IMG/VR virus record: IMGVR_UViG_3300028534_000019
Coordinates: 31,091-95,090 of that record
DNA: 64,000 bases
Strand: one strand, 5' to 3'
DNA from: a virus
Lineage: Duplodnaviria > Heunggongvirae > Uroviricota > Caudoviricetes
The notes beneath the pieces are model-generated. The model was not told where the DNA came from. It ran no database searches and was given only the letters and a program-made list of their open reading frames with translations. A program made the translations under genes and the position numbers. Shown in pieces: positions 2,359 to 39,772 of this stretch. Numbering within the stretch: position 1 is the first letter of the stretch; every line of letters starts with the position of its first letter.

Positions 2359-2372
2359 TCTTCTAAGATTTG
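2342..2372 (+). terminator. Hairpin overlapping the gp32 stop (TCTTAGAAGAC-cttta-GTCTTCTAAGA) followed by TTTGG
   Basis: 11-bp perfect inverted repeat read in sequence. The downstream T-run is weak. Confidence 0.35.
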
Positions 2373-2381
2373 GATTGTAAA

Positions 2382-3512
2382 ATGAAACATAATTCTATAA
2401 TAGTAATAGATTTTTCTCATTTATCAAGTAGAATGTTATATGTTGCTGTATCACAAGCACATCCAAAAAAGAAAAATGGTAAATTTATTACTTCTGATTT
2501 TGTGAAATATTATAAACATTTGATATTTAATTCTTTACAATCAGTAAATACTAAGTTTAAAGGTGATATAATTATTGCTATGGATGGCAGAGATAATTGG
2601 AGAAAGAAATTTTATCCATTATATAAAGCACATAGGGCAAAAGATAGAGATAAATCTGAAATAAATTTTGCTGAATATTATGAAGAACTTGATAAGGTAG
2701 CAAATGCTTTAGAAAATTATTTCCCTTATAAAGTTATTAAAGTAGATGAAGCAGAAGCAGATGATATTGCTGGGGTTATAAGTAATACTTATGGTAATGA
2801 AATGAATATAACTTTAGTTACATCAGACCACGATTGGCAACAAGTACAAGCAGAAAATGATTTAATTACATTTTTTGACCCAATTAAAAGACTTGAAATA
2901 GAAATATCAGCAGATATGCAGGAAATTATTGATACACCTGAGGGTAAAATGTCAAGATTTACAGTAATTCATACCTTATTAGGTGATGATGGGGATAATG
3001 TACCGGGTGTTGTTAAATATACTGAATTTTCAGATAGTTTTATTTCTTTCTTAAAAGAAAATGGTATATATGATGTATCAGTTAAGAATTTTCATAAACT
3101 GAGTATGGCAGATGAACTACTTCAAAAATTTGATGTTTATAAAGTAGTTAAATCAGGGAAGAAAAAAGGGCAATTTTCAGATATTAAAGATATTTACAAA
3201 ACAAAAGCATTCGGAAAAGTTAAGGCTGAAAAAGTTTCACAAAATTCTGAAACACTTAATAAGTTTTTAGATTCTGATGAAATGTATAGAGATAATTTTA
3301 AAAGAAATGCTGTTTTAGTTGATTTCAATAAAATTCCAAAATTTGTAGAAGAAAAAATACTACAAGAATATAAAACAAAAAATAATCTTGCTAAAAATAA
3401 CAAGATATTAGAATATTTTATAAATGAAGGTTTGGGTGAGATGGTTCAAAAAGTTCATCTTTTTTATGGTGACTCAGATGAATCATCACTTGATGATTTT
3501 TTAGAATGGTAG
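2382..3512 (+). CDS. rnh: T4 RNase H-like 5'-3' exonuclease (FEN family)
   Basis: IVIDFSHL..., IIIAMDGRDNWRKKFYPLYKAHRAK, KVDEAEADDIAG and TSDHDWQQV match T4 rnh motifs. The ATG at 2382 is preferred over the track's TTG at 2370. Confidence 0.85.
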   Translation: MKHNSIIVIDFSHLSSRMLYVAVSQAHPKKKNGKFITSDFVKYYKHLIFNSLQSVNTKFKGDIIIAMDGRDNWRKKFYPLYKAHRAKDRDKSEINFAEYYEELDKVANALENYFPYKVIKVDEAEADDIAGVISNTYGNEMNITLVTSDHDWQQVQAENDLITFFDPIKRLEIEISADMQEIIDTPEGKMSRFTVIHTLLGDDGDNVPGVVKYTEFSDSFISFLKENGIYDVSVKNFHKLSMADELLQKFDVYKVVKSGKKKGQFSDIKDIYKTKAFGKVKAEKVSQNSETLNKFLDSDEMYRDNFKRNAVLVDFNKIPKFVEEKILQEYKTKNNLAKNNKILEYFINEGLGEMVQKVHLFYGDSDESSLDDFLEW

Positions 3513-3826: not shown

Positions 3827-4873
3827 ATGGCTATTATAGAACCATTAGAACAAAAATACTTCTTACTAGAAACCTCATCTAAAGACATAGGATACATTAA
3901 AAGTGATGATATATCTAAATCTTGTGATATATGTAATGAGGGTTCATCTTATGGTAGAAAACACCGACTTCATTTATACACTAAACCTACATATGATACA
4001 CCATCAATAGCGTGTTTTAATTGTGGTTATAAAGGTAATATGTATAGTTATCTTAGAGATTACCATCCTACTTTATTTGACCAATATAAAAAAGAAAAAA
4101 TGGGTAGTACCTTTAAAGAGTTAAAATTATCAAAAAATAAAAATAAAAACTCTAATAATGAAACAACAGAAGATATAAATTTAGATAATATTTTTAGTTC
4201 ACACAAAACAAAACACACACCAATATTAGGCGATTTACCAAAAAGTTTTAAGCCTTTATTAGAATTTGAAGAACCTATAAAATACTTAAAGAATAGAAAA
4301 ATAGAAAACTATGATAGATGGTATTTTTCACCAAAAGATAATAATATTGTATTTAATGGTGCTGAGGTAAGATTAAGTGAATATATTATTATACCATTCT
4401 ATAAAGAAGATAAAATATATGGTTTTCAAGCATTATCATACAAACAAAAAAGATTTTTTGTATTTTTATTAAAAGGTAATGATAGTTGGAAAGTTGAAAA
4501 TTGGTTTAATATAGATAGAGAGAAAAATATATATGTTTTTGAATCTGTTTATGATAGACTTTCATCAGGTTTAGATAATACTATTTCCCAAATGGGTGCT
4601 AGTTTATCAGTTGAAAGAATAGAAGAATTAAATAAAAATAAGCTAGTTTTTTGTTTGGATAATCAAAATATTGATGAAGCATCACAAAGAGAGTCTTTAA
4701 AATATGCTGAGAAAGGTTATAATGTTTTTATTTGGCCGACTAAGATACCAAAAAAATTTAAAGATACAAATGATTTACTAAAGGGTGGTGTACCAAAAGA
4801 AAAGATTAAAGAGATTATTGAAAATAATACCTTTAGTGGTACAGAAGCAATTTTGAGATTAAAAATGATATAA
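3827..4873 (+). CDS. 61: T4 gp61-like DNA primase
   Basis: Zn-ribbon CDICNEG...CFNCGYKGN followed by ...YLRDYHPTLFDQYKKEK, plus C-terminal VFIWPTKIPKKFKDTNDLL. These parallel T4 gp61. Confidence 0.8.
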   Translation: MAIIEPLEQKYFLLETSSKDIGYIKSDDISKSCDICNEGSSYGRKHRLHLYTKPTYDTPSIACFNCGYKGNMYSYLRDYHPTLFDQYKKEKMGSTFKELKLSKNKNKNSNNETTEDINLDNIFSSHKTKHTPILGDLPKSFKPLLEFEEPIKYLKNRKIENYDRWYFSPKDNNIVFNGAEVRLSEYIIIPFYKEDKIYGFQALSYKQKRFFVFLLKGNDSWKVENWFNIDREKNIYVFESVYDRLSSGLDNTISQMGASLSVERIEELNKNKLVFCLDNQNIDEASQRESLKYAEKGYNVFIWPTKIPKKFKDTNDLLKGGVPKEKIKEIIENNTFSGTEAILRLKMI

Positions 4874-4883
4874 AGGAATAATA

Positions 4884-5633
4884 ATGTATATACCAAGAAG
4901 AGAATTTGATGATGAACCAAAAATAATTATTTTTAGTGGTGCTGGATTGGATGCCCCATCAGGATTAAAAACTTTTAGGGGTTCTGATGGTTTATGGGAT
5001 AGCCACAAAATACAAGATATTTGTACTGAAAGTACTTGGAAACAAAATTTTGAAGAAGTTCATAATTTTTATAATGGTTTAAGAAATAAATTAGAAAAAG
5101 CACAACCAAATAAAGCACATTTAAAAATAAAAGAATTATATGAAAAGTACCCTGATAGTGTTCTAAATATTACAATGAATATATCAGACTTTTTTGAAAG
5201 GTTAGAAGTTCCAGTTCTTCATATTCACGGAGAACTTAAAAAAATGGAATGTTATGCTTGTGGTACTAAATGGGATATTGGGTATAAGCAGTGGGATATT
5301 GAAAAAGATAGGTGTCCTAAATGCAATAGTAGAAAAGGTGTGAAACCATCTATTGTATTTTTTGGTGGTCAAGCACCTATGTATAGCTACTTGTGGCGTG
5401 CTTTTGAGCATACTATGAATAAAGATACTATTGTGATTGTTATTGGTACTCAGGGTAATGTAGTGAATGTAGAAGAGAATTTAATAGGTACTCCTTGTAA
5501 GAAAATTCTTTGTAATATGGAAGCATCAGCAGATATTAATGTAAAAAAATGTGGTTTTGATAAGGTGTACTATGAAAGTATAGAAACAGCAATAGACAAA
5601 ATTATGGATGATATTGAAGAATGGAAAAAATAA
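4884..5633 (+). CDS. Sir2-family NAD-dependent deacylase / ADP-ribosyltransferase
   Basis: Sirtuin motifs FSGAGLDAPSGLKTFRGSDGLW and ITMNISDF...VLHIHGEL. Zn tetrad CYACG...CPKCN, then IVFFGG. Confidence 0.8.
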   Translation: MYIPRREFDDEPKIIIFSGAGLDAPSGLKTFRGSDGLWDSHKIQDICTESTWKQNFEEVHNFYNGLRNKLEKAQPNKAHLKIKELYEKYPDSVLNITMNISDFFERLEVPVLHIHGELKKMECYACGTKWDIGYKQWDIEKDRCPKCNSRKGVKPSIVFFGGQAPMYSYLWRAFEHTMNKDTIVIVIGTQGNVVNVEENLIGTPCKKILCNMEASADINVKKCGFDKVYYESIETAIDKIMDDIEEWKK

Positions 5634-6088
5634 AAATATTCACAAGTTACTATTCTAATATTAACAAAATCAGAGAGAATTATCCTGATTTTGTTTTAAT
5701 TTCAATTAGTGGTGGTTTGGAAAATAATATTATAACTTTAATAGATGATTGGGATAAAAGGTTAGCACCTAAAAAAGATTTCTTCTTAGAGTATAAAAAT
5801 TCAAAAGAAGGTTTACCACGAGAGATTAAATATGTAAAAGAATTTAATGATAAAGTTCTATATAAAGATAAAATAAAAATAATTATAAACTCTTGGTTAG
5901 AAAAATATCCAAACAAAACTATTGTAATGCTTTGTTATGAACATCCTAAAGATTTTTGTCATAGACAAATAGTAGCTAAAGAAATTGAAACTGTTTTTAA
6001 TGTTGATGTAAAAGAATTATTTTTTGAAAATTATGAAAGAATAGATTATAAAATGTTTCCTAAAGGCTTAGATGAAGATGAATGGTAA
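5621..6088 (+). CDS. DUF488-like protein (LCYEHPKDFCHRQIV signature), overlapping the Sir2 stop
   Basis: N-terminal IKIFTSYYS and C-terminal ...IVMLCYEHPKDFCHRQIVA resemble the DUF488 ALLCaE..CHR signature. Its start overlaps the Sir2 stop by 13 nt. Confidence 0.4.
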   Translation: MEKIKIFTSYYSNINKIRENYPDFVLISISGGLENNIITLIDDWDKRLAPKKDFFLEYKNSKEGLPREIKYVKEFNDKVLYKDKIKIIINSWLEKYPNKTIVMLCYEHPKDFCHRQIVAKEIETVFNVDVKELFFENYERIDYKMFPKGLDEDEW

Positions 6089-6165: not shown

Positions 6166-6639
6166 ATGAAAAAAGAATTAAAAATAGATATATTAGATAA
6201 TCTACAAAGAAATAGTGTTTGTGTTATTTTTAAACCAAGTGATAGTGTTTCACATATACTTATTTTGGAAGAATTAGTAAATAGAGTAGTATCAAGTGAA
6301 GTGATATTAAAAAGAGATACACTTGAGTATCTTAGAGATTCAGAAATAGAAATATATCCATTAGTTTATATGTCAAAAAATGATTTTGATGAATTACCTC
6401 AAAATGTCAAAGCAAGAGTTAGTTGTGTTGATGGTGAGATGTTATTTGAAAGTGTAGAAGATGATAGACAATTATCTAAAACAACCTTTTCTATACAAAT
6501 AGAAGATAAAGAATATACAAAAGATGAACTTTTAAAAGAAGTTGTTATGAGAATGAGTAATTTAGAAGATGGTACTTATGCTAGTACACCTGATGATTAT
6601 GATGACTTTTATAGTTCTTACAGTTTTAAAAAGATTTAA
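6166..6639 (+). CDS. hypothetical acidic protein
   Basis: 157-aa ORF with a TATAAT plus AAGGAAAAGG upstream. Confidence 0.5.
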   Translation: MKKELKIDILDNLQRNSVCVIFKPSDSVSHILILEELVNRVVSSEVILKRDTLEYLRDSEIEIYPLVYMSKNDFDELPQNVKARVSCVDGEMLFESVEDDRQLSKTTFSIQIEDKEYTKDELLKEVVMRMSNLEDGTYASTPDDYDDFYSSYSFKKI

Positions 6640-6705
6640 TTTTTAAGTTTCATTTAAGTTTAATATGTTATAATTTTACATATCAAAAGACAAAAAGGAT
6701 TTAAA
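6640..6705 (+). repeat. 66-nt promoter/RBS module, copy 1 (near-identical to 36836-36901)
   Basis: ttttaagtttcatttaagt[t/c]taatatgttataattttacatatcaaaagacaaaaaggatttaaaATG occurs twice with a single mismatch. Confidence 0.85.
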
Positions 6706-6954
6706 ATGTCACAAATTAATTTCAAAAAAGTTTCTTACTATGTAGTTTCAATTATGGTATTATTTTCTTTAATAGCAATATTATCAAAACCATCACAAAT
6801 TGAGATAGATGTAAAATCAGGTACTAAAACTCTAACTTGTGAATTTGCTGATGGATGGAGAGAAATAGAACCTGAAAAAGTTGTTGGGTTTAATGATGAA
6901 AATGGATATTGGACTTTTACAAATGGTTATGCTAAAAATTGTGAGGTTAGATAG
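6706..6954 (+). CDS. small membrane-anchored protein
   Basis: Hydrophobic segment YYVVSIMVLFSLIAIL after a short N-terminus. Lies behind the repeated promoter module. Confidence 0.5.
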   Translation: MSQINFKKVSYYVVSIMVLFSLIAILSKPSQIEIDVKSGTKTLTCEFADGWREIEPEKVVGFNDENGYWTFTNGYAKNCEVR

Positions 6955-7157
6955 TGTTTGTTGATAAAATTTTAGAAAATGGTGTAGAGTGTGTTTTTAT
7001 TACACACTCCAACAAAATAAGAAAGGCATATAGATATAAAAATATTATTTGGAAAATATATGCTAGTGGTGGTTATTCTGAAGTTTTTGAAAGTGAAATT
7101 CAATTCTCAGGAACAAGAGAAGAAGCAAAACAGAAATATCCTGAATTATTTTTTTAA
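6954..7157 (+). CDS. small protein with C-terminal KYPELFF tag
   Basis: 67 aa. Ends ...KQKYPELFF-stop. One of seven YPE-tag proteins in the window. Confidence 0.5.
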   Translation: MFVDKILENGVECVFITHSNKIRKAYRYKNIIWKIYASGGYSEVFESEIQFSGTREEAKQKYPELFF

Positions 7158-7166
7158 AGGTTAGAT

Positions 7167-7463
7167 ATGGATTTAGATAAAATAAGATTAATAGAAACAA
7201 ATAGTGCTTTAGGTTATATGGAAGTAGCATACCTAATACAAATAAATGAAAAAGAAATGCTTTGTGTGTATTCAAATGAAGAAGGATATGTAGGTGACCA
7301 TTCTTGGGTGGTTGGTGAAGTGTATGATATGTTTGAATATGAGAGTGATTATGATGAAGTAATTAATGATAAGAAAGAAATGGTATTAAAAGATTCTCCT
7401 CTATATGGTGATTTTTTATTTGACTTTTTCTTAAAACATCTAATTAAGAATAAACTATGTTAG
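7167..7463 (+). CDS. hypothetical protein
   Basis: 98-aa ORF. Confidence 0.45.
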   Translation: MDLDKIRLIETNSALGYMEVAYLIQINEKEMLCVYSNEEGYVGDHSWVVGEVYDMFEYESDYDEVINDKKEMVLKDSPLYGDFLFDFFLKHLIKNKLC

Positions 7464-8191
7464 ACTATATATCTATATTAGCTGGTGGTTCTTGTAAATT
7501 TAATTGTGAATTTTGTGTTGGTAATTCTATAAGAGAAAATATCACACCTCATTATAGTTCAAAAATCAAAGGTTTTTTAGAATGTTATGCTGATAGAACA
7601 CAATTACTTTCAGTTTCAGGTGATACTTCAGACCCATCATTAATAAGTGAAACAATATTTATTCCTGTTGAAGCAAAAGAGTATAATAAAGATATAAAAG
7701 TTAGCATACATACAAGGGATATATATTTTACTGAAAAAGCAATGGATTATGGTTATGATAAAATTGTTTTAAGTATTGATGAAACACTTTCAGAAAATGA
7801 TTATCAAACCTTAGTAAATTATTATTACCACTATGGTTATAATATTAGATTAAGTTTTGTTTTAACATCATCTAATTTTTGGATTATTGATGAATGGAAA
7901 AAAGATTTTCCAGCATTATTTGATATGGAATTAACAATAAGACCTGATGTATTTGAAAAAGATGAGGTTTTTAGAAAACATATTTTTTTAGAAACATTTC
8001 TTGGTATAGATGGAGATTGGCAAAATATAGAGCAATATAAAAATGAATATGGTGCTATTGTTTTAGAAAAGTACCCTAATGTTTGGTATTGGGATTATAA
8101 TGTTACTAATAAAAATCTTGATGTTTTATATCTTTTTAGTAATGGTGACATAAAAAATAATTGTAAGTGGGAAAATTTATATGAAAATTAG
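7457..8191 (+). CDS. radical SAM domain protein (activase/QueE-like)
   Basis: N-terminal GGSCKFNCEFCVG, i.e. a CxxxCxxC cluster. Confidence 0.65.
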   Translation: MLDYISILAGGSCKFNCEFCVGNSIRENITPHYSSKIKGFLECYADRTQLLSVSGDTSDPSLISETIFIPVEAKEYNKDIKVSIHTRDIYFTEKAMDYGYDKIVLSIDETLSENDYQTLVNYYYHYGYNIRLSFVLTSSNFWIIDEWKKDFPALFDMELTIRPDVFEKDEVFRKHIFLETFLGIDGDWQNIEQYKNEYGAIVLEKYPNVWYWDYNVTNKNLDVLYLFSNGDIKNNCKWENLYEN

Positions 8192-8438: not shown

Positions 8439-8795
8439 ATGAGTTTAGAAAGTACAGTGGCTTCACAGTCAATACACCCAGGAACATATGAAGTACATTG
8501 GGAAAATACATTCGATACAAAAGAAATAGTTAGTACAATAGAAATAAAACAAACTATATATTCTAGTAATCAATTAAAAAAAGTTCTTAAAAAATTATTA
8601 AAAAATTTTGATAAATTAAATAGTGAAATAAAATTAATAGAACCATCATATAATAATACTGAAGAAAAAATTAATAGAACATTTGCTATAATTGATATGA
8701 ATAATGAATATGAGATTAATAAACTAATTTCAGAAGGGTATTCTTTAAAAGAGATACACCAAGGTAAATTTATATTATACAAAAGGATTATATAA
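8439..8795 (+). CDS. hypothetical protein
   Basis: 118-aa ORF. Confidence 0.45.
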   Translation: MSLESTVASQSIHPGTYEVHWENTFDTKEIVSTIEIKQTIYSSNQLKKVLKKLLKNFDKLNSEIKLIEPSYNNTEEKINRTFAIIDMNNEYEINKLISEGYSLKEIHQGKFILYKRII

Positions 8796-9316
8796 TGGTT
8801 TTAAATTTTTATGGCGGGCCGGGTATTGGTAAAAGTACAAAAGCATCAGAGTTATTTTTTAGATGTAAACAACAAAACTTACAGGTTGAATTAATACACG
8901 AGTTTGCTAAAGATATGGTTTATTCTCAATCTATGGAAATATTGAAAGACCAATATTATGTAGGTGCTAATCAACATCATAGGGTGTGGAGAGTTCATAA
9001 CTATTACTTACAACAAGGTTTTAAAGAGGATGAATTTCTTATAATAACTGATAGTCCTATTTTGTTGGGTGCGGCTTATACTGATGATGATAAATTAAGA
9101 GATTTTATTTTTGAAACTTCAGAAAGATATAATAATATTAATATTATGCTAACAAGAAAATTTAATTACCAAGAAGAGGGAAGAAACCAAGATTTAAAAG
9201 GTGCTATTGAGATTGATAAAAAAGTTTTAGATTTATTAAATAAAACTTCTTATATAGAAACAAATGATACAGATAAAATTTTATCTCTAATTAAGGAAAA
9301 AATGAGTACAATATAA
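8795..9316 (+). CDS. P-loop NTPase / nucleotide kinase-like
   Basis: Walker A FYGGPGIGKST. Kinase-sized at 173 aa. Confidence 0.6.
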   Translation: MVLNFYGGPGIGKSTKASELFFRCKQQNLQVELIHEFAKDMVYSQSMEILKDQYYVGANQHHRVWRVHNYYLQQGFKEDEFLIITDSPILLGAAYTDDDKLRDFIFETSERYNNINIMLTRKFNYQEEGRNQDLKGAIEIDKKVLDLLNKTSYIETNDTDKILSLIKEKMSTI

Positions 9317-11741: not shown

Positions 11742-12089
11742 ATGCTTTATACTTACAGAATTAAAAAAATACACAAAATATATGATGGTGATACAATTAC
11801 AGCAGAACTTGATTTAGGATTTAAGATTTCATTTATTGAAAAGATTAGATTGTCTTTTATTGATGCTCCTGAAATAAGAGGGGAAGAAAGAGAAGAAGGA
11901 TTAAAATCAAGATTATGGTTAGTAGAACATTTAAACTCAGCTATATCTAAAGGTGATGATGTTTTTGTTAGAACAAATAAAGATAGCCAAGGTAAATATG
12001 GAAGATATTTAGGGGATATTATAATTAATGGGGAGTCACTTAATCTAAAGATGGTTGAAGAGGGTTATGCTGAACTTTATAAAAAGTAA
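11742..12089 (+). CDS. staphylococcal-nuclease (SNase/thermonuclease)-like nuclease
   Basis: IYDGDT, RLSFIDAPEIRG and KYGRYLGDI...N..MVEEGYA match SNase Ca-binding and catalytic positions. Confidence 0.65.
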   Translation: MLYTYRIKKIHKIYDGDTITAELDLGFKISFIEKIRLSFIDAPEIRGEEREEGLKSRLWLVEHLNSAISKGDDVFVRTNKDSQGKYGRYLGDIIINGESLNLKMVEEGYAELYKK

Positions 12090-12099
12090 AGGTTTTATT

Positions 12100-13872
12100 A
12101 TGGAAGGAATATTTAATAAATTAAAAGAACATAATAAAGATGTTGTACTTAGTGATGAAGAGAAAAATAAAGTTTTAAGTGTTATAGATATAGAGAAAAA
12201 TAAAGAGGGTTTATATGTAGATGCCTTTGGTATGCCTATATCGCATAATGGGTTAAGAGATTTAAAAAAAGAGAAAACACAAATAAATCTTTCAGAAACA
12301 TTAATAAATGAAATTAAAACATCATATTTAGATTATTATTATTTTAGAGAAAATTATTGTAAAATTGTTACTAAAAAAGGTATTAAAAGACCTGAGCCAA
12401 GACCATACCAAAAAAGGTTAGAAGATGATTTAGTAACAGGTGAAGATGTTTTAGCATTTTGGCCGAGACAATCAGGAAAATCTGTAACTATTTCAACTTA
12501 TCTATTATGGAAAGCAATTACAACACCTAATATTAATATTGGTATAGCGGCAAATGTTCAAAAATTAGCTATGGAAGTATTAGACAAAATAAAAAATATA
12601 TTTTTGGAGTTACCTATTTGGATGAAGCCGGGTATAAAGGTTTGGAATAAAGGTTCTATTGAATTTGAAAATGGTACAAGAATTTTAACCTCAGCAACTA
12701 ATGGTGATGCTTTTAGGGGGTTTACTATTAATATATTATATGTTGATGAGGTTGCTTTTATTAGACATAGTGTGTGGGAAGAATTTGCTGATTCTGTTTT
12801 CCCTGCTCAAGAAGCACTTATGGAAAAACAAACTATTATGTCAAGTACGGCTGGTGGGCTTAATCATTGGTATCATTTAGTAGAGGGTGCTAGAAAGGGT
12901 AAAAATGGTTATAGAATAGCTGAAGCAAGTTGGAAAGAAGTTCCTAGATGGAAAAAAGATGGTACTCTTAAAACACCTGATGAATTTAAGGCTGAAATAA
13001 TAGCTAAAAATGGAGAGATGTTTTTCCAACAAAATTTTGGTAACTCTTTTTTAGGTAGTTCTAAAACTTTAATAGATTCACAAGCATTAAAAAATATTGA
13101 ACCTATGGATGATGATGAAATTTTGTTTGATAATGTTTTTAATGGACTAAGAATTTTTAAAGAGCCAAAACCTAATCATAATTATATAGTTACTTGTGAC
13201 CCCAAAAAAGAGGGTTTGGATAGTGCTGGATTACAAGTTGTTGATGTTACAAATTTACCTTTTGAACAAGTAGCATCAGCACAATTACACGAGAGTTATT
13301 TAACAATTCCTGGTAAATTAAATGATTTAGGGTTGTATTATAATAAGGCTATGATAGTATGTGAAAATAATGTAGCTGAGTCTATACCTAGTACTGTATA
13401 TTATAATTATGAATATGAGGGTGAAGTCTTTATAGAAAAAGATAGTAAGGGTCGCCCTAAAAAGGAAATGGGCATTAGGACAACTACCAAAACAAAAAGA
13501 TTAGGTTTAACTCTATTAAAGAAATTTGTAGAGAATGGAAACCTAATAATAAATGATACAAAAACATTAGATGAATTATTTAACTTCATTGAATATAAAG
13601 ATGGTATATATAAAGCAGAAGAGGGTTATCACGATGACCTTGTTATGTCATTAATGCTTGTTTTTGCTCCATTTTTAGATTTTAAAAACTTTGATGATTT
13701 TAGAGGTTTTGTTGATTATCTTGATAAAAAAGAAAAACAACAAGAAGAGAATGATAAAGAGATGGAAGAATTTATGGATTTAGGTTTTAGTTCTGATGAT
13801 GATTTGGAAGATGACGGGCCGTTTACTAAGGATATTTGGGGAAATAGAGATATGGTTGGTGGCTTCATATAA
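12100..13872 (+). CDS. 17: terminase large subunit (T4 gp17-like)
   Basis: Walker A AFWPRQSGKSVTIST and Walker-B-like ILYVDEVAF, with a C-terminal nuclease region. Start moved to the ATG at 12100, which has an aaagg RBS. Confidence 0.85.
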   Translation: MEGIFNKLKEHNKDVVLSDEEKNKVLSVIDIEKNKEGLYVDAFGMPISHNGLRDLKKEKTQINLSETLINEIKTSYLDYYYFRENYCKIVTKKGIKRPEPRPYQKRLEDDLVTGEDVLAFWPRQSGKSVTISTYLLWKAITTPNINIGIAANVQKLAMEVLDKIKNIFLELPIWMKPGIKVWNKGSIEFENGTRILTSATNGDAFRGFTINILYVDEVAFIRHSVWEEFADSVFPAQEALMEKQTIMSSTAGGLNHWYHLVEGARKGKNGYRIAEASWKEVPRWKKDGTLKTPDEFKAEIIAKNGEMFFQQNFGNSFLGSSKTLIDSQALKNIEPMDDDEILFDNVFNGLRIFKEPKPNHNYIVTCDPKKEGLDSAGLQVVDVTNLPFEQVASAQLHESYLTIPGKLNDLGLYYNKAMIVCENNVAESIPSTVYYNYEYEGEVFIEKDSKGRPKKEMGIRTTTKTKRLGLTLLKKFVENGNLIINDTKTLDELFNFIEYKDGIYKAEEGYHDDLVMSLMLVFAPFLDFKNFDDFRGFVDYLDKKEKQQEENDKEMEEFMDLGFSSDDDLEDDGPFTKDIWGNRDMVGGFI

Positions 13873-16601: not shown

Positions 16602-17051
16602 ATGATATATTCAAATAATAAAAAAGTAAAACACGACTATGAAATAATTGAAACATTTGAGGCAGGTGTTGTTTTGAGCGGTCCGCAAGTAAAATCAATT
16701 AGAAAAGGTTCTTTAAGCCTTAAAGGTTCTTATGTTAGTCTTGATGATGGTGTTTTATCATTAAAACAATACTCACTTGCTAGACCTGATTATTTGGATG
16801 CTTTTAGTTCTTTTGATGATAAACCAATAAAATTTTTACTCAAAAAAAGAGAGATTAAAAAATTACAAAAAAAGATTCAAGAAAAAGGTTTAACATTATC
16901 TATAACAAAAGTTTATCAACCTGAAAATACTAGATTTATTAAGGCTGAGTTAGTTCTTGTGAGAGGTAAAAAACTATATGATAAAAGAGAAGATTTAAAA
17001 AAGAAAACACAAGAAATGGATATGAAAAAGGCTATAAAATATGATAGATAA
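16602..17051 (+). CDS. smpB: SmpB (SsrA-binding protein)
   Basis: KHDYEIIETFEAGVVLSGPQVKSIRKGSLSLKGSYVSLDDG...KKREIKKL...GLTLSITKVY aligns along the length of E. coli SmpB. Confidence 0.85.
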   Translation: MIYSNNKKVKHDYEIIETFEAGVVLSGPQVKSIRKGSLSLKGSYVSLDDGVLSLKQYSLARPDYLDAFSSFDDKPIKFLLKKREIKKLQKKIQEKGLTLSITKVYQPENTRFIKAELVLVRGKKLYDKREDLKKKTQEMDMKKAIKYDR

Positions 17052-17250
17052 TCTAAAAAGTGCTGATGAAATATATTTAGTAGTACAGTTTGGAGCAAAA
17101 GATTTTAACAATAGAACACAAGAATTGATTGATGAAAATTATATTCCATTTAGTGATGTTGCTGTTCAAAGTTTTCACGATGAATTTTGCTTTTCACAAC
17201 AGTTTATAAAAAATCCAAAATACATAGAAGAAACAAAAAGGAAAATATAA
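17041..17250 (+). CDS. hypothetical small protein
   Basis: 69 aa. Its stop overlaps the next gene's ATG (TAATG). Confidence 0.4.
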   Translation: MIDNLKSADEIYLVVQFGAKDFNNRTQELIDENYIPFSDVAVQSFHDEFCFSQQFIKNPKYIEETKRKI

Positions 17251-18041
17251 TGTTAATAGTACCTGTTGGTTTGCCTGGTTCAGGAAAAACTGTTTTATCA
17301 AGAAAATTTAATACAGTTATAAATGCTGATGAATTGTTTAAGGATAATTATACATTAGATGATTTAATAAATTATATAAAAGAATATAATTATACAGTAA
17401 CAGATGTTTATTTGGATGGTTTATTTATTACAAGGAATTTAGTTAAGAAATTGATTGAAACTTTTGATTATTATATTAGATTAGTATATTTTAAACCTAA
17501 TATAGAAAATTGTATCTACAATGATTTATCAAGAAATAGAGAAAAAGATAGTGTTAATATAATTTATGGTTCTGATTTAAGTTTTATGAAAGAAAGTTAT
17601 TTTAGAAATAAAATAAGAGAAACAATGGAAGTATATAAGGCTGATTATGTAGAATATATAAAAGAAGAAAATAACTTTCAAAATTATATAGAAACACAAG
17701 AGTATGTCTTAGAAGGAAGTACATATGGTACTTGTTGGGATGAAGACGGCCCGTCTGAAACAACACCTGATGACCCATACCATTTTACTGATTTTACAGA
17801 ACTTGAAAAGATATTTAAAAAAATGAATATTCCTTATACAGAAGAAAATTATAATAAAATTGAAAGTGTTATAGAAGAAGAAGATAGAAGTGAGGGTGAT
17901 TATTATGGTGGTTATGCTTATAAAGAGGTTTATAGAGTTGAAGTTACATTATTAATAAAAGCAATACTAAAAGAGTTTTTTGGTATTGATAAAACAGATA
18001 TGGCATATATTAAAAAAGAATACCCTGAACTAATATTTTAA
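17250..18041 (+). CDS. P-loop kinase (polynucleotide-kinase-like N-terminus) with C-terminal EYPELIF tag
   Basis: Walker A VGLPGSGKT, then VINADE. Ends ...YIKKEYPELIF-stop. Start set at the ATG at 17250, which has an aaagga RBS. Confidence 0.6.
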   Translation: MLIVPVGLPGSGKTVLSRKFNTVINADELFKDNYTLDDLINYIKEYNYTVTDVYLDGLFITRNLVKKLIETFDYYIRLVYFKPNIENCIYNDLSRNREKDSVNIIYGSDLSFMKESYFRNKIRETMEVYKADYVEYIKEENNFQNYIETQEYVLEGSTYGTCWDEDGPSETTPDDPYHFTDFTELEKIFKKMNIPYTEENYNKIESVIEEEDRSEGDYYGGYAYKEVYRVEVTLLIKAILKEFFGIDKTDMAYIKKEYPELIF

Positions 18042-18056: not shown

Positions 18057-18569
18057 ATGGTAGAAGAAAATAATTTTAGAGAAACAAAAACACATATTTA
18101 TTTTTGGGGTAGTATCTATTCTCAATGGTACACTTCAAAAAACCAATTCAAAGAAGATGGATTTATTTTTCAAAATGCTGAACAGTATATGATGATGAAA
18201 AAAGCAGAACTTTTTAAAGATTATGATGTATTAGAAAAAATGAAACAAACAAGTAATCCAAAGGTATTAAAAAAATTGGGTAGAGAAATTAAAGGTTTTG
18301 ATGAAGATATTTGGAATTTTAATAAAATGGATATTGTTGAAAGAGGGAATTTTTTAAAGTTCTCTCAAAATCCTAAGTTATTAGAAAAACTTATAGCACA
18401 CAAAAATAAACATATAGTAGAAGCATCACCTTATGATAAGATTTGGGGTATTGGGCTTCATTGGTCAGATGATAAGGTATTAAATGAAAGTACTTGGAAT
18501 GGTGAAAATCTTTTAGGTAAATGTATTATGTCAGCAAGAGATAAAATTTTAAATCCAAAATCTATATAA
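18057..18569 (+). CDS. NADAR (YbiA/DUF1768) domain protein
   Basis: FQNAEQYMMMKKAELF, KKLGREIKGFDEDIW, KFSQNPKL and VEASPYDKIWGIG match the NADAR signature. Confidence 0.75.
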   Translation: MVEENNFRETKTHIYFWGSIYSQWYTSKNQFKEDGFIFQNAEQYMMMKKAELFKDYDVLEKMKQTSNPKVLKKLGREIKGFDEDIWNFNKMDIVERGNFLKFSQNPKLLEKLIAHKNKHIVEASPYDKIWGIGLHWSDDKVLNESTWNGENLLGKCIMSARDKILNPKSI

Positions 18570-18639: not shown

Positions 18640-20490
18640 ATGGCAGTTATTGGTATAGATTTAGGAACGACAAATAGTGCTGTTTCAGTTTATGAAGTAG
18701 GGGAATTTAAAATTATTCCTAATGCTGAGGGTAAAAATACAACACCTAGTATTGTAGCATTTACAGATAAAGGGGATGTATTAGTAGGGGAATCAGCAAA
18801 AAGACAAGCAGTCACAAACCCTGAAAAAACTATTGAAGCAATTAAAAGAATTATGGGTATGCAATTTAATGAACCTAGATGTAAAGAGGCTCAAGAAAAA
18901 GTACAATATAAAATTGTAGATAAAAATGGTTTGGCCGCTGTTGATGTTGATGGTAAGATTTATACACCACAAGAAATTTCAGCTAAAATCCTTACAAAAC
19001 TAAAAGATGATGCAGAAGCATTTATTGGTAAAGAAGTTACAGATGCTGTAATTACAGTTCCAGCATACTTTAATGATGCTCAGAGAAAGGCGACACAAGA
19101 GGCAGGCGTTATTGCAGGGCTTAATGTACTAAGAATTATTAATGAACCTACTTCGGCCGCTCTTGCTTATGGTTTGGACAAAAAAGGTGAGGAAAATATT
19201 CTTGTTTATGATTTTGGTGGTGGTACTTTTGATGTATCTGTATTAGAAATTGGAGATGGTACTTTTGAAGTTCTTTCAACTGATGGTAATGCTTTCTTAG
19301 GTGGTAAAGACTTTGACCAAATTTTAGTTAATTATATTGCTGAATATTTTAAAGAGAAACAGGGTGTTGATTTAAGAAATGATAAAATGGCACTTCAAAG
19401 ATTATATGATGCTTCAGAAAATGCTAAAAAAGAGTTATCAAGTGTTGTAGAAACTGAAATTAACTTACCATTTATTACTATGACAGAAGCCGGCCCGCAG
19501 CATCTTGTTTTAAAAATTTCAAGAGGTAAATTTGAGGGGTTAGTACAAAATCTTGTAGATGAAACTATTGAACATATTACAACAGCATTACAAGACGCTG
19601 GTTTAAGTGTAGATGATATTAGTGAATTGATTATGGTTGGTGGCTCAACAAGAATACCTTTAGTACAAGAGGCAGTTTCAAAGTATTTTAAAGGTAAAAC
19701 TCTTAATAAATCTGTTAATCCTGATGAAGTTGTAGCCGCTGGTGCTTCAATTCAAGGTGGTGTATTAACAGGAGATGTAAAAGATGTTCTTCTTCTTGAT
19801 GTTACACCATTATCACTTGGTATTGAAACTATGGGTGGTATTGCTACTAAAATCATCCCAAAAGGTACAACTATTCCTGTTAAAAAATCAGAAATCTTTA
19901 GTACAGCAGTTGATAATCAACCAGCAGTTAGTATTGTAGTAGTACAAGGTGAAGCAAAATTAGCAGAAGATAATAAATCTTTAGGACAATTTAATCTTGA
20001 GGGTATAACACCAGCTAAAAAAGGTGTACCACAAATTGAAGTTAATTTTGATGTTGATTCTAATGGTGTTTTGAGTGTATCAGCTATTGATAAAGGAACA
20101 GGTAAAGAACAGAAAATAACAATTACAGGTTCGACAGGTTTAAGTGAAGAAGAAATTAGAAAGATGATTGATGATGCTGAAAAACAAAATCAAGAAAAGG
20201 CTGAAAAAATTAAAGCAATTGAAGCAAAAAATGAATTGGATGCTACTCTTTCAAGAATTAAAAACTTTAATGATGAAGAAAAAAATGAAGTGCTATCAGC
20301 TAAAATTTCTGATGTTGAAGAATATGTAAAAGAAGATAGAACAGCAGAAGAAATTAGAAAAATTAGAGATGAACTTGAAGAAGTTTATTTAAAAGCATTT
20401 GAAGAGAAATCAAAAAGAAATGAAGGTGCTGAGGTAAAAGAAAGCACTGAAAATAATGATGATGTTATTGATGCTGAAATTGAAGAATAA
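18640..20490 (+). CDS. dnaK: Hsp70 chaperone DnaK (canonical-looking)
   Basis: [32 protein letters not shown] and the substrate-binding domain [14 protein letters not shown]. Ends DVIDAEIEE. Confidence 0.95.
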
Positions 20491-20501: not shown

Positions 20502-21305
20502 TTGAAAAAATTATATAAAATTCTTGAAATTGAAGAAACTTCTACAACAGTAGAAATAAAAAAAGCATATAGAAAATTAGCTAAAAAATACCACCCTGAT
20601 GTTTGTAAAGAAGAGGGTGGTGAAGATAAGTTTAAAGAAATTAATAGAGCATATGAAGTTCTAAGCAATCCACAAGAAAAACAAAAGTATGATAGATTTG
20701 GTGATGAAATGTATGAAAAAATGGGGTCAGGTGGTGGAAGACCTAATCCAAATGCTGATGAGTTTGCAGAAGCAATGGCATCATTTTTCAACCAAAAGGG
20801 AAATCCCCGACAAGGTAATCCTTTTGGTATGGGTGGTAATCCTTTTATTCATACAACAATTCAAGCATATATTTCGATAGAAGATTTATTTAAAGGTACT
20901 TCTATACAATTACAAGATGGTACTAAAGTAAAAATACCACCTAGAACAATACCGGGTAGTAGGGTAAGAGTTAAAGGCAAAGGTATGTCAGATGGTAAAA
21001 ATACAGGAGATTTATTTATTATCATAACACCAAAAAATAATGATAAAGAATTTGTTGAGAATGATACTATTATAAAGATTATCAAAATTGATTTAGTTAG
21101 TATGATTTTTGGAAATGAAATAAAATATAATCATTATGGTAAAGATTTAATTGTTACTGTTCCAAAAAATACAAAGCCCGGTGACTTTGTACAAATTCCC
21201 AATCAGGGCTTAGGTACTCAGGGTTCATTAATTTTACATTTAGATTTAGAATTACCAAAAGCAGAAGATTTAGATGAAGAAAAAGTAAAAGAATTATTTA
21301 ATTAA
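20502..21305 (+). CDS. J-domain co-chaperone (class B-like, no Zn-finger), TTG start
   Basis: J domain with YRKLAKKYHPD...KFKEINRAYEVLSNPQEKQKYDRFG, followed by a G-rich linker and a C-terminal client-binding domain. aagagga RBS 5 nt before TTG. Confidence 0.85.
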   Translation: MKKLYKILEIEETSTTVEIKKAYRKLAKKYHPDVCKEEGGEDKFKEINRAYEVLSNPQEKQKYDRFGDEMYEKMGSGGGRPNPNADEFAEAMASFFNQKGNPRQGNPFGMGGNPFIHTTIQAYISIEDLFKGTSIQLQDGTKVKIPPRTIPGSRVRVKGKGMSDGKNTGDLFIIITPKNNDKEFVENDTIIKIIKIDLVSMIFGNEIKYNHYGKDLIVTVPKNTKPGDFVQIPNQGLGTQGSLILHLDLELPKAEDLDEEKVKELFN

Positions 21306-39451: not shown

Positions 39452-39772
39452 GGGGATGATATGGTTTCGACTGGAAGTCATAGCACTAATGATACCTTTT
39501 AAAATTAAACGCAAACAACACAGATTACACTGGTAACACAGTGCTTTCAGCATAGTCTAAGGACTTGACTGAGGGGTTTTTAAGTTTTACCTTGCAACAG
39601 AAAAACTTATCCTTTTCGTTTTATATGGTTGTATGTCCTTAACATACATTAAAGTTTGTAATCTTTTCAAAATTACACATAAAAGTTAATAGTTCTTGGT
39701 TCTTTTAAAAACTAGAACATATCATTAGTGTGGATTTTTAGGACTCGGGTTCAATTCCCGACATCTCCACCA
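39452..39772 (+). ncRNA. ssrA: tmRNA (SsrA), 321 nt including encoded CCA
   Basis: 5' GGGGAUGAUAUGGUUUCGAC pairs with 3' CAUCUCC-A-CCA, including a G3:U70 wobble. T-arm UCGGG-UUCAAUU-CCCGA. The tag-leader UUUUAAAAUUAAAC-GCA-AAC-AAC matches the recalled C. jejuni ssrA leader. Confidence 0.9.
39511..39555 (+). other. tmRNA tag-peptide reading frame: ANNTDYTGNTVLSA-stop(TAG)
   Basis: The resume codon GCA follows AAAUUAAAC as in the host-type ssrA recalled from memory. The tag is 14 aa and shares ANNTDY with the Helicobacter tag as recalled, but its C-terminus VLSA differs from the host AKAA. Confidence 0.7.

What the first reader, a model, noticed from the sequence alone, without database searches (positions are those of the whole stretch)
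4884..6088. Sir2-family enzyme translationally coupled to a DUF488-like protein
The sirtuin motifs are complete (GAG..SG..FRG..GLW, N-ISDF...HIHG, Zn Cys4). A 155-aa gene with the DUF488-like LCYE..CHR signature starts inside the Sir2 stop region (ATGGAAAAAATAA overlap). Bacterial Sir2 domains act as deacylases, as ADP-ribosyltransferases, or as NADases in defence systems. A phage copy may modify host proteins or pre-empt NAD+-depletion defences. The tight coupling suggests the DUF488 protein is a partner or regulator.
Basis: partly seen in the sequence, partly recalled or inferred. Interest (0 to 1): 0.6.

Follow-up and report, generated by a model that had tools for sequence, protein, structure and literature searches.

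The report
Phage sirtuin next to DUF488 phosphatase-like gene
A very AT-rich T4-like phage carries a CobB-like sirtuin gene whose end overlaps a small DUF488 (cysteine-phosphatase-fold) gene; both calls are real, but the overlap is ordinary phage gene packing and relatives show the two are neighbours, not an obligate pair.

Summary
Both genes exist as described. ORF 4884-5633 is a sirtuin: Pfam SIR2 E 4.6e-28, and its model superposes on E. coli CobB at TM about 0.8. ORF 5621-6088 is a DUF488-N3a protein, above Pfam's cut-off, with an invariant LCYE.P.DFCHR loop and a rhodanese/PTP-phosphatase-like fold. The 13-nt overlap ATGGAAAAAATAA is real.

The sirtuin motifs are not fully canonical. The NAD-pocket motif TQN[IV]D reads TMNISD, a variant shared with its closest phage relatives and KVP40.

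The coupling argument is weak. In this window 21 of 78 same-strand neighbour pairs overlap. In related metagenomic phages Sir2 and DUF488 lie 0.3 to 2.4 kb apart, with one to four genes between them. Two relatives keep DUF488 while Sir2 is destroyed, and one keeps Sir2 with no DUF488 within 6 kb. Across 80 viral DUF488 loci only 3 have a Sir2 nearby. Across 80 viral Sir2 loci only 1 has a DUF488 nearby.

Best reading: two co-transcribed accessory enzymes of the phage's NAD+/ADP-ribose and RNA-repair toolkit. Relatives place RlaP and a kinase between or beside them. These are new members of known kinds, with no experimental function known. Interest is modest.

The parts
4873..4877 (+). Shine-Dalgarno-like AAGGA, 6 nt upstream of the Sir2 ATG
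   Evidence: Read directly from the sequence. 73 of 82 + strand ORFs in the window have an SD-like motif upstream.
4884..5633 (+). Sir2-family (CobB-like, class III-type) sirtuin gene, 249 aa
   Evidence: PF02146 E 4.6e-28; phrog_2162 E 7.5e-52. Best solved relative is E. coli CobB, E about 1e-30. AF2 model pLDDT 93; Foldseek TM 0.80-0.86 to CobB over about 245 columns.
4938..4946 (+). GAG of the Rossmann NAD-binding motif (residues 19-21, within IFSGAGLDAPSG)
   Evidence: G19 and G21 are invariant and A20 is at least 90% conserved in 32 homologs. Aligned to GAGISAESG of CobB.
5172..5189 (+). NAD/nicotinamide-pocket motif T-M-N-I-S-D (residues 97-102), a variant of canonical T-Q-N-[IV]-D-[DN]
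   Evidence: Aligned to TQNIDN of CobB. Cellular Campylobacterota homologs keep TQNVDD. The closest phage relatives and KVP40 have T[M/A]N[IV]SD. 17 Sir2 ORFs in the fetched loci carry the SD form.
5226..5228 (+). Codon of the catalytic His115 (HIHGE)
   Evidence: Invariant in the alignment. Aligned to the HMHGE His of CobB.
5250..5324 (+). Zn-ribbon module, CxxC...CxxC (C123, C126, C144, C147)
   Evidence: All four Cys are invariant in 32 homologs.
5621..5633 (+). 13-nt overlap ATGGAAAAAATAA: DUF488 start codon to Sir2 stop codon. DUF488 is in the -1 frame relative to Sir2, and there is no SD-like motif in front of its ATG.
5621..6088 (+). DUF488-N3a gene, 155 aa, rhodanese/PTP-phosphatase-like fold
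5933..5965 (+). Predicted active-site loop C105-Y-E-H-P-K-D-F-C-H-R115, between strand 101-105 and helix 114-126
   Evidence: C105, Y106, E107, D111, F112, C113, H114 and R115 are invariant in 16 homologs. Secondary structure from the model.

Best explanation
These are two adjacent, co-transcribed accessory genes. They sit in a plastic stretch just downstream of the replication genes (gp32, RNase H, primase) of an uncultivated T4-like phage with 26% G+C. The sirtuin's nearest cellular relatives are from Campylobacterota, and a related contig comes from a hydrothermal-vent metagenome; the host itself is an inference.

Gene 1 is a CobB-type sirtuin. It has the catalytic His, the pocket Asn and a Cys4 zinc module, so it is most likely an NAD+-consuming acyl-lysine deacylase or ADP-ribosyltransferase. 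It belongs to a phage subclade in which the nicotinamide-pocket motif TQN[IV]D has become T[M/A]N[IV]SD.

Gene 2 is a DUF488-N3a protein of the rhodanese/PTP-phosphatase superfamily. It has an intact Cys...Cys-His-Arg loop. It is most likely a cysteine-dependent phosphoesterase acting on a ribose phosphate, either on an ADP-ribose derivative or at a nucleic-acid end.

The 13-nt overlap reflects the general gene packing of this genome. The two proteins are not an obligate two-component system. Both probably contribute to the phage's wider NAD+/ADP-ribose and RNA-repair/translation-rescue toolkit: NADAR, RlaP, a CCA-adding-type nucleotidyltransferase, Nudix, and tmRNA with SmpB.

Shown here: family and fold assignments, residue conservation, gene order in relatives. 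Inferred: both substrates and both activities.
For: Family and fold.

The overlap is generic: 21 of 78 same-strand neighbour pairs overlap and 26 more lie within 20 nt. No terminator-like site lies between 3400 and 8400.

Gene order in relatives:
- Sir2 lies upstream of DUF488 with gaps of about 0.3, 0.3, 0.5, 0.9, 1.0, 1.35 and 2.4 kb (L187, L193, L005, L009, L007, L189, L184).
- In L145, Sir2 is cut by a GIY-YIG endonuclease gene and only residues 1-79 and 207-249 remain. DUF488 stays an intact ORF 5 kb away, after dnaK-grpE-dnaJ, though the otherwise invariant Asp111 is Cys there.
- In L011, Sir2 is reduced to about 45 residues fused to the upstream ORF, and DUF488 is intact.
- L100 has Sir2 (60% identical, syntenic with RNase H and primase) with no DUF488 within 6 kb.

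Wide sampling: Sir2 lies within 6 kb in 3 of 80 viral DUF488 loci. DUF488 lies within 6 kb in 1 of 80 viral Sir2 loci, and that one has the disrupted Sir2. Among 80 metagenomic DUF488 loci, only the 5 close relatives have a Sir2.

Toolkit context:
- In the window: NADAR 18057-18569 and SmpB 16602-17051; tmRNA; RlaP at 24448-25548, plus PolyA_pol-head, NUDIX and Metallophos hits among the other ORFs scanned.
- L184: Sir2, two ORFs, RlaP, one ORF, DUF488, then a CoaE/AAA_18 kinase.
- L182: Sir2 close to an HD+AAA_33 kinase and RlaP.
- NAD/ADPr genes recur within 6 kb of viral DUF488 genes: NADAR, PARP, PnuC, SLOG, Tad3, Tad8, KptA.

Literature: most viral sirtuins are predicted to act in RNA repair, and the related DUF4326 rhodanese-phosphatase clade is predicted to process phosphates on ADPr ribose (PMC9503650).
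Against: - No activity of any phage sirtuin of this clade, or of any DUF488 protein, was found in the literature searched. Both substrate assignments rest on homology and on published computational predictions.
- Sir2 does lie upstream of DUF488 in about 8 of 12 sampled lineages of this phage group, which a pure no-relationship model explains only as inherited synteny.
- The NAD/ADPr gene enrichment around viral DUF488 genes is no stronger for immediate neighbours than for genes 3.5-6 kb away. It is a regional effect, and I had no genome-wide background to compare with.
- The D-to-S change in the nicotinamide pocket could mean altered or lost NAD+ chemistry.
- The toolkit genes in this window lie 11-20 kb from the pair, with the tmRNA about 34 kb away.
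Confidence: 0.55

Rival explanations
1. The two proteins are a true functional pair, a two-step pathway. The sirtuin uses NAD+ to transfer ADP-ribose. This would either remove an RNA 2'-phosphate, as KptA/Tpt1 does, giving ADPr-1'',2''-cyclic phosphate, or deacylate a protein, giving O-acyl-ADPr. DUF488 would then hydrolyse the phosphate on the ADPr product or heal the RNA end. Translational coupling would set their stoichiometry.
For: - Adjacency or near-adjacency in about 8 lineages of this phage group.
- No SD-like motif in front of the DUF488 ATG, consistent with reinitiation.
- In L184, RlaP and a kinase sit in the same cluster.
- A different class of Sir2 (24-28% identical) lies 0.8-4.5 kb from a 33%-identical DUF488 in L062, L082 and L092.
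- Published predictions for viral sirtuins and for rhodanese-phosphatase domains (PMC9503650).
- A Macro-domain ADPR-1''-phosphate phosphatase is experimentally used by phages (bioRxiv 10.64898/2026.01.28.702374).
Against: - The overlap is unique to this genome, and the spacing varies from -13 nt to 2.4 kb with unrelated small ORFs in between.
- DUF488 is kept as an intact ORF where Sir2 is destroyed (L145, L011).
- Sir2 occurs without a nearby DUF488 (L100).
- Co-location is only 3 of 80 and 1 of 80 in the wide samples.
- L082 and L092 are near-identical, so independent events are few.
- No Sir2-DUF488 fusion appears among the 120 listed homologs of either protein.
Confidence: 0.2
2. DUF488-N3a works on DNA ends or DNA modification as part of the replication/repair module, and has nothing to do with NAD+ or the sirtuin.
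For: - In the window it follows gp32, RNase H and primase.
- Relatives lie beside DNA polymerase B (L016), Pol III alpha and NAD-dependent DNA ligase (L067), and an AP-endonuclease-2 family gene in a cellular contig (L012).
- It is fused to DUF1848 in L085, and lies near an amidoligase/DAM-like/GNAT base-modification gene in L058.
- From memory of Burroughs & Aravind 2023 (NAR Genom Bioinform lqad029; the paper is not held): some enzymes of the RapZ-C/DUF488/DUF4326 clade were predicted to process DNA ends.
Against: No neighbour recurs across the 38 dereplicated viral loci; the largest non-DUF488 cluster is in 14 of the 80 loci and probably reflects synteny. NAD/ADPr genes are at least as frequent nearby.
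Confidence: 0.17
3. The sirtuin is an NADase or ADP-ribosylating toxin-like effector, used for host takeover, superinfection exclusion, or pre-emption of NAD-depletion defence. DUF488 is its antidote or regulator, like the sirtuin-Macro pairs.
For: - Two cellular homologs sit in defence or mobile islands: L097 with integrases, Fic, a second SIR2, cREC and ADP-ribosylglycohydrolase; L098 with GmrSD, PemK, WYL and McrB.
- DUF488 gives weak hits to two PADLOC candidate-system models, E 6e-6 and 4e-5.
Against: - No PADLOC Sir2 model matches.
- The full deacylase architecture with zinc module superposes on CobB, Sir2Af and SIRT5.
- A Sulfurimonas homolog (50% identical) sits in a housekeeping context.
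- Either gene occurs without the other, which an antidote relation would not tolerate for the toxin (L100).
Confidence: 0.05
4. A programmed -1 ribosomal frameshift on the A6 run (TGG AAA AAA TAA) just before the Sir2 stop codon makes a Sir2-DUF488 fusion protein.
For: DUF488 is in the -1 frame. tRNA-Lys can re-pair perfectly one base back on AAA AAA at a stop codon (sequence).
Against: The run is only six A's preceded by G. A-runs are everywhere in a 26% G+C genome. Relatives have separate genes with ORFs in between. No fusion proteins appear among the listed homologs.
Confidence: 0.03

Closest known systems
E. coli CobB and class III sirtuins (SIRT5, Sir2Af1)
   Same: Same fold over the full length (TM 0.80-0.86). 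GAG..SG, FR, the catalytic His, the pocket Asn and the Cys4 zinc ribbon are all present.
   Different: - About 29% identity.
- Scores of 120-130 bits are far below the NCBIfam CobB cut-offs of 243-320.
- TQNID reads TMNISD.
- FGE reads FGG.
- The Arg of the Y-x-x-R succinyl-recognition motif is Leu.
Phage sirtuins of PHROG 2162 (KVP40 Sir2/CobB, T5-like, rV5-like and jumbo-phage copies)
   Same: Same family; 1009 phage records match. KVP40 shares the T-A-N-V-S-D pocket variant. Function was predicted by Iyer et al. 2022 as KptA-like RNA repair.
   Different: At most 45% identical to any cultured-phage copy. It is closer (50-67%) to Campylobacterota proteins. KVP40 lacks the zinc cysteines in the alignment and has no DUF488 neighbour.
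[quoted passage not shown]
   Same: Above the Pfam cut-off, with the invariant C-Y-E...D-F-C-H-R loop. The fold resembles PTP/DSP phosphatases and RapZ-C. At least 5430 proteins match the profile at E <= 1e-5.
   Different: No member has a tested activity. The closest cultured-phage copies (Erwinia Machinavirus, Vibrio 1.121.O, Lak phages) are only 24-28% identical and are not next to Sir2.
Sirtuin-Macro two-gene systems (SirTM/Macro; Streptomyces phage Moab type)
   Same: A sirtuin gene next to a small enzyme that could process an ADPr-linked product (PMC9503650).
   Different: The partner here is not a Macro domain, the pairing is not conserved, and the sirtuin is CobB-like rather than SirTM-like.
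Phage Macro-domain ADPR-1''-phosphate phosphatase Adpp of NARP1-AP
   Same: A phage phosphatase acting on a phosphorylated ADP-ribose. This is the kind of reaction proposed for DUF488.
   Different: Unrelated fold. Adpp sits in a NARP1 operon with Adps and Namat. No significant Adps (PRPS-like) or Namat (NAMPT-like) match appeared among the window ORFs scanned.

Membership tests
Sirtuin (Sir2, PF02146) | Profile match above the curated cut-off | tested here: met
   98.8 bits against a cut-off of 24, E 4.6e-28, profile positions 1-178 of 180.
Sirtuin (Sir2, PF02146) | Rossmann fold plus small zinc-ribbon domain, superposable on solved sirtuins | tested here: met
   AF2 pLDDT 93. Foldseek TM 0.80-0.86 to CobB and 0.75-0.79 to Sir2Af1/2 and SIRT5. 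Cys4 invariant.
Sirtuin (Sir2, PF02146) | Catalytic His (HG motif) and pocket Asn | tested here: met
   H115 and N99 are invariant in 32 homologs and align to the CobB residues.
Sirtuin (Sir2, PF02146) | Canonical T-Q-N-[IV]-D nicotinamide/ribose pocket motif | tested here: not met
   T-M-N-I-S-D: Gln to Met, and the pocket Asp to Ser. This is a subclade feature shared with the closest phage relatives and KVP40.
Sirtuin (Sir2, PF02146) | NAD+-dependent deacylase or ADP-ribosyltransferase activity | not testable with these tools
   Needs enzyme assays.
CobB equivalog (NCBIfam NF040867, NF001753 and relatives) | Score above NCBI's curated cut-off | tested here: not met
   120-130 bits against cut-offs of 243-320.
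SIRT5/CobB-type desuccinylase | Tyr-x-x-Arg pair that binds the acyl carboxylate | tested here: not met
   F-Y-N-G-L-R: the Tyr is present, the residue at +3 is Leu, and Arg is at +4. Most homologs have R-R.
Defence-type Sir2 NADases (ThsA, DSR1/2, Sir2-HerA, SPARSA) | Match to a PADLOC Sir2 model, or fusion or linkage to a sensor (SLOG, HerA, pAgo) | tested here: not met
   No PADLOC hit at E <= 0.01. Single-domain protein with no such neighbour.
DUF488-N3a (PF22751) | Profile match above the curated cut-off | tested here: met
   39.4 bits against a cut-off of 27, E 8.8e-10. The database's precomputed Pfam agrees.
DUF488-N3a (PF22751), 'active' subclade | Conserved C-x-E ... C-H-R loop between a strand end and a helix start | tested here: met
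   C105, E107, C113, H114 and R115 invariant. Strand 101-105 and helix 114-126 in the model.
Rhodanese/PTP-phosphatase superfamily | Fold similarity to PTP/DSP phosphatases, rhodanese and RapZ-C | tested here: met
Rhodanese/PTP-phosphatase superfamily | Cys-dependent phosphoesterase or transferase activity | not testable with these tools
   Needs enzyme assays. No DUF488 member with a tested activity was found.
Conserved two-gene Sir2-DUF488 system (operon partners) | Adjacency conserved beyond close relatives and mutual dependence of presence | tested here: not met
   Variable spacing with inserted ORFs. DUF488 without a functional Sir2. Sir2 without DUF488 within 6 kb. Co-location in 3 of 80 and 1 of 80 wide samples.
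Viral 'RNA-repair' sirtuin neighbourhoods (Iyer et al. 2022) | Sirtuin gene linked to RNA-end-processing genes (2H, Nudix, cREC, PIN, RNA ligase, kinase, MazG, HAD or calcineurin phosphoesterase) | tested here: inconclusive
   In the window the nearest such genes are 3-20 kb away: AAA_28 at 8795-9316 and RlaP at 24448-25548. In relatives, RlaP and a kinase lie within 3 kb of Sir2 (L184) and an HD+AAA_33 kinase and RlaP lie within 4 kb (L182). No RNA ligase was seen.

The most novel reading that the evidence does not exclude
In this group of phages, the Sir2, RlaP, DUF488-N3a and P-loop kinase genes together encode a previously undescribed NAD+-dependent RNA-end healing pathway. The related contig L184 comes from a hydrothermal-vent metagenome. 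The pocket-variant sirtuin would remove RNA 2'-phosphates in a KptA-like manner. DUF488 would be the long-sought activity of its family: a cysteine phosphatase acting on ADPr-1''-phosphate or its cyclic form, or on 2',3'-cyclic or 3'-phosphate RNA ends. The pathway would counter host tRNA- or mRNA-cleaving defences alongside the phage's own tmRNA and SmpB.
Probability: 0.15. Interest if true: 0.65.

Novelty: new member of a known kind. Interest (0 to 1): 0.33.

Why it matters
Phage sirtuins are annotated in more than a thousand phage genomes, and DUF488 proteins number in the thousands. In the literature I could search, neither has an experimentally shown function. This locus and its relatives offer a compact, testable set: a sirtuin with a derived nicotinamide pocket, a cysteine-phosphatase-fold protein, and in relatives an RNA-repair nucleotidyltransferase and a kinase. 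Testing it could assign the first activity to DUF488 and check the published prediction that viral sirtuins act in RNA repair. As it stands, the finding is a correct annotation of two known families, and the 'coupled partners' inference does not survive comparison with relatives.

Tried and rejected
1. Near-identical DNA in cultured phages: none. Close relatives in IMG/VR by single-sequence patterns: none.
2. DUF488 neighbours in cultured phages (Erwinia Machinavirus, Vibrio 1.121.O): no Sir2 adjacent. I did not test genome-wide co-occurrence in Erwinia phages (16 records with DUF488, 15 with Sir2). A 'spread' listing of Sir2 hits contained no Erwinia row.
3. Neighbour clustering of 80 viral DUF488 loci found no widely recurrent partner.
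4. Near versus far Pfam census: NAD/ADPr genes are equally common 3.5-6 kb away, so I dropped the claim of adjacency-level enrichment.
5. Radical-SAM ORF 7457-8191 against the DUF1848 domain fused to DUF488 in L085: no similarity by BLASTP.
6. Sequence search of DUF488 against PDB: nothing.
7. The C-terminal extension of the L198 DUF488 fusion looks like a SLOG/DprA domain, but only at E 0.05.
8. Literature: no paper in the library holds both DUF488 and Sir2. The DUF488 papers give no function. There is no experimental paper on phage sirtuins. Burroughs & Aravind 2023 could not be retrieved, so what I say of it is from memory and from Pfam's family names.
9. The promoter scan was uninformative, with fewer matches than in shuffles.
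10. Complex prediction was not possible with the tools.
Full report
**Observation**

The window holds two + strand ORFs, 4884-5633 (249 aa) and 5621-6088 (155 aa). The ATG of the second lies 13 nt inside the first, in the sequence ATGGAAAAAATAA.

The first ORF matches Pfam SIR2 at E 4.6e-28 over essentially the whole profile. It also matches the phage sirtuin family phrog_2162 at E 7.5e-52. The second ORF matches PF22751, 'DUF488-N3a, active DUF488-N3 subclade', at 39.4 bits, above the curated cut-off of 27. The generic DUF488 model scores just below its cut-off. It also matches phrog_2450.

**The sirtuin**

- The best solved relatives are E. coli CobB (E about 1e-30), then Sir2Af1/2, SIRT5 and Sir2Tm.
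- An AlphaFold model built on 32 homologs has pLDDT 93. It superposes on CobB over about 245 columns at TM 0.80-0.86.
- G19, G21, R32, N99, H115 and the four zinc cysteines are invariant across homologs.

The motifs are not all canonical:

- Where CobB has TQNIDN, the window has TMNISD. Gln becomes Met, and the pocket Asp becomes Ser followed by Asp.
- Cellular Campylobacterota homologs keep TQNVDD. The closest metagenomic phage relatives and Vibrio phage KVP40 share T[M/A]N[IV]SD. 17 Sir2 ORFs in the fetched loci carry the SD form.
- The Arg of the Y-x-x-R succinyl-binding pair is Leu here.
- NCBIfam CobB models score only 120-130 bits against cut-offs of 243-320.
- No PADLOC defence-type Sir2 model matches.

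It is therefore a divergent member of the deacylase-type sirtuins. It is neither a CobB equivalog nor a defence NADase type.

Phage sirtuins are already widely annotated: 1009 phage records match, including T5-like, rV5-like, KVP40-like and 350-kb jumbo phages.

The nearest proteins overall are from uncultivated contigs and from Campylobacterota:

- Sulfurimonas 50-67% identical, Hydrogenimonas 54%, Sulfurospirillum 53%.
- One Sulfurimonas copy sits in a housekeeping context.
- Two others sit in mobile or defence islands.

**The DUF488 protein**

- Sixteen homologs share an invariant C105-Y-E ... D-F-C113-H-R115 loop.
- The model (pLDDT 92) places C105 at the end of strand 101-105 and H114-R115 at the start of helix 114-126. 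This is the strand-loop-helix geometry of cysteine phosphatases and rhodaneses.
[quoted passage not shown] I could not retrieve that paper. Its citation appears.
- The family is large: 5430 proteins at E <= 1e-5, almost all single-domain.
- I found no experimental function.

**Is the coupling meaningful?**

Overlaps are the norm in this window. 21 of 78 same-strand neighbour pairs overlap, and 26 more lie within 20 nt. There is no terminator-like site between 3400 and 8400. The DUF488 ATG has no SD-like motif in front, so reinitiation is plausible. That does not single out this pair.

Related contigs from metagenomes (Sir2 61-78% identical, DUF488 43-57% identical to the window) show the following arrangements:

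| Locus | Arrangement |
|---|---|
| L187, L193 | Sir2 upstream of DUF488, gap about 0.3 kb |
| L005 | Gap 0.5 kb, two ORFs between |
| L009 | Gap 0.9 kb, three ORFs between |
| L007 | Gap 1.0 kb, four ORFs between |
| L189 | Gap 1.35 kb |
| L184 | Gap 2.4 kb: Sir2, two ORFs, RlaP, one ORF, DUF488, then a CoaE/AAA_18-type kinase |
| L145 | Sir2 interrupted by a GIY-YIG endonuclease gene. Only residues 1-79 and 207-249 remain. DUF488 is an intact ORF 5 kb away, directly after dnaK-grpE-dnaJ, though the otherwise invariant Asp111 is Cys there |
| L011 | Only about 45 N-terminal Sir2 residues remain, fused to the upstream ORF and followed by stop codons. DUF488 is intact |
| L100 | Sir2 (60% identical) after RNase H and primase, as in the window. 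No DUF488 within 6 kb |
| L191 | No Sir2 within about 2 kb upstream or 1.5 kb downstream of DUF488 |
| L192 | No Sir2 within 6 kb of DUF488 |

The neighbourhood is therefore inherited synteny in a stretch that gains and loses small genes. Each gene can persist without the other.

**Wider tests**

- Of 80 IMG/VR loci with more distant DUF488 genes, three have a Sir2 within 6 kb (L062, L082, L092). Those sirtuins are of another type (24-28% identical, TQNI[DE]G). L082 and L092 are near-identical, so these represent one or two events.
- Of 80 IMG/VR Sir2 loci, only L145 has a DUF488 within 6 kb.
- Of 80 metagenomic DUF488 loci, only the five close relatives have Sir2.
- Clustering of neighbours found no widely recurrent partner.
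- A Pfam census of the two genes on each side of 36 of the 38 dereplicated viral DUF488 genes gave NADAR (2), SIR2, PnuC, PARP, YpsA-SLOG, Tad3, Tad8, Thg1 and Metallophos (3).
- A control census of genes 3.5-6 kb away in the same loci gave SIR2, KptA, NADAR, YAcAr-SLOG, AAA_28 (3) and Thg1.
- Viral DUF488 genes therefore tend to lie in regions rich in NAD+/ADP-ribose and RNA-repair genes. The signal is regional, not one of adjacency, and I had no genome-wide background to compare with.
- Fusions seen: DUF488-DUF1848 (L085) and a DUF488 with a possible SLOG-like extension (L198).

**Context in the window**

The pair follows gp32 (1345-2358), T4-type RNase H (2370-3512) and a primase (3827-4873). 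Further along the window:

- A radical-SAM-like ORF (7457-8191) and an AAA_28 kinase-like ORF (8795-9316).
- The large terminase (12055-13872).
- SmpB (16602-17051), a NADAR protein (18057-18569), DnaK (18640-20490) and DnaJ (20502-21305).
- RlaP (24448-25548). A second Hsp70, a PolyA_pol-head nucleotidyltransferase, NUDIX, Metallophos, ThyX and baseplate proteins lie among the remaining ORFs; I did not place them individually.
- A tmRNA (39452-39772), found by ARAGORN and confirmed by Rfam at 90.8 bits.

G+C content is 26%.

**Mechanism**

Iyer et al. 2022 (PMC9503650) argued that most viral sirtuins form a clade used like KptA in RNA repair. That clade is linked to 2H, Nudix, cREC, kinase, ligase, MazG, HAD or calcineurin-like genes. 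They also argued that the related DUF4326 rhodanese-phosphatase domain processes phosphates on the ribose of ADPr. A phage Macro-domain ADPR-1''-phosphate phosphatase has since been shown experimentally.

Two relatives fit that picture: L184 (Sir2, RlaP, DUF488, kinase) and L182 (an HD+AAA_33 kinase, Sir2, RlaP).

My best reading has two parts. The first is a CobB-like NAD+-consuming transferase or deacylase with a derived nicotinamide pocket. The second is a Cys-dependent ribose-phosphate phosphoesterase. Both belong to the phage's NAD+/ADPr and RNA-repair toolkit and are co-transcribed, but they are not an obligate pair (confidence 0.55).

The rivals are:

- A true two-step pathway (0.2).
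- A DNA-end or DNA-modification role for DUF488, unrelated to NAD+ (0.17).
- A toxin/antidote or NADase role (0.05).
- A -1 frameshift fusion on the A6 run (0.03).

**Novelty**

Both families are known in phages. I found no publication mentioning the two together, but the adjacency is specific to this lineage. I file the finding as a new member of a known kind, of modest interest. Its value lies in offering a small, testable gene set for two families that still lack an experimentally defined function in phages.

**Limits**

All functional statements are inferences. The loci are mostly short metagenomic contigs, so 'absent' means absent within the flank available. The lineages compared are related, so the counts are not independent events. 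The Pfam census lacks a genome-wide background.

Noticed in passing
window 39452-39772 (+) and 16602-17051 (+): The phage encodes its own tmRNA (ARAGORN tag ANNTDYTGNTVLSA*; Rfam RF00023 at 90.8 bits against a gathering score of 47) and its own SmpB (PF01668, E 1.7e-38). Together these form a complete trans-translation rescue pair.
   Followed up: partly
window 18640-20490 and 20502-21305 (+), plus a further Hsp70 hit among ORFs 21365-62429: DnaK (Hsp70, E 1.7e-230) and DnaJ genes, and a second Hsp70-family ORF (E 4e-141). The related contig L145 has dnaK-grpE-dnaJ followed directly by DUF488.
   Followed up: partly
window 18057-18569 (+), 17187-18041 (+), 8795-9316 (+): A NADAR-domain protein (E 3.8e-45), preceded by a 284-aa ORF with a weak P-loop (AAA_33) hit. 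Separately, an AAA_28 kinase-like ORF. An AAA_28+NADAR fusion gene recurs near DUF488 in other viral loci (L021).
   Followed up: partly
window 24448-25548 (+) and other ORFs in 24000-62000: An RlaP 'RNA repair pathway' nucleotidyltransferase, plus PolyA_pol-head (CCA-adding type), NUDIX, Metallophos, SNase and YqeY hits. This is an unusually large RNA-repair/translation-support gene set for one phage window. The individual ORFs were not all located.
   Followed up: partly
window 7457-8191 (+): A 244-aa ORF with a CxxxCxxC motif (CKFNCEFC) and a weak Radical_SAM hit (E 0.005), 1.4 kb downstream of DUF488. It shows no BLASTP similarity to the DUF1848 domain that is fused to DUF488 in L085.
   Followed up: partly
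L145 6001-7640: In a related phage the sirtuin gene is split by a 355-aa GIY-YIG homing-endonuclease ORF (6461-7528). The catalytic middle, residues 80-206, is missing. This is a natural Sir2 knockout with DUF488 retained.
   Followed up: yes
window 5621-5633: The Sir2 ORF ends TGG AAA AAA TAA, and DUF488 is in the -1 frame. A -1 slip of tRNA-Lys at the stop codon would fuse the two proteins. The feature is not conserved in relatives, so it is probably incidental.
   Followed up: no
L097 5598-8756; L098 6001-9287: Cellular homologs of this sirtuin in a Sulfurimonas single-cell genome and in Hydrogenimonas sit in defence or mobile islands. Each island has a second, different SIR2 gene nearby. 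The Sulfurimonas copy overlaps a DDE_Tnp_1_assoc gene and lies beside a cREC gene.
   Followed up: no
L085 2911-4071; L198 5174-6337: DUF488-N3a occurs fused to DUF1848 (Pfam E 1.7e-17) in one viral contig. In a metagenomic contig it carries a C-terminal extension with a DprA/SLOG-like GGAKGAD motif (PDB DprA, only E 0.05).
   Followed up: partly
window 5621-6088: The DUF488 protein gives weak hits to two PADLOC candidate defence-system models: PDC-M19A at E 6.4e-6 and PDC-M45C at E 3.8e-5.
   Followed up: no
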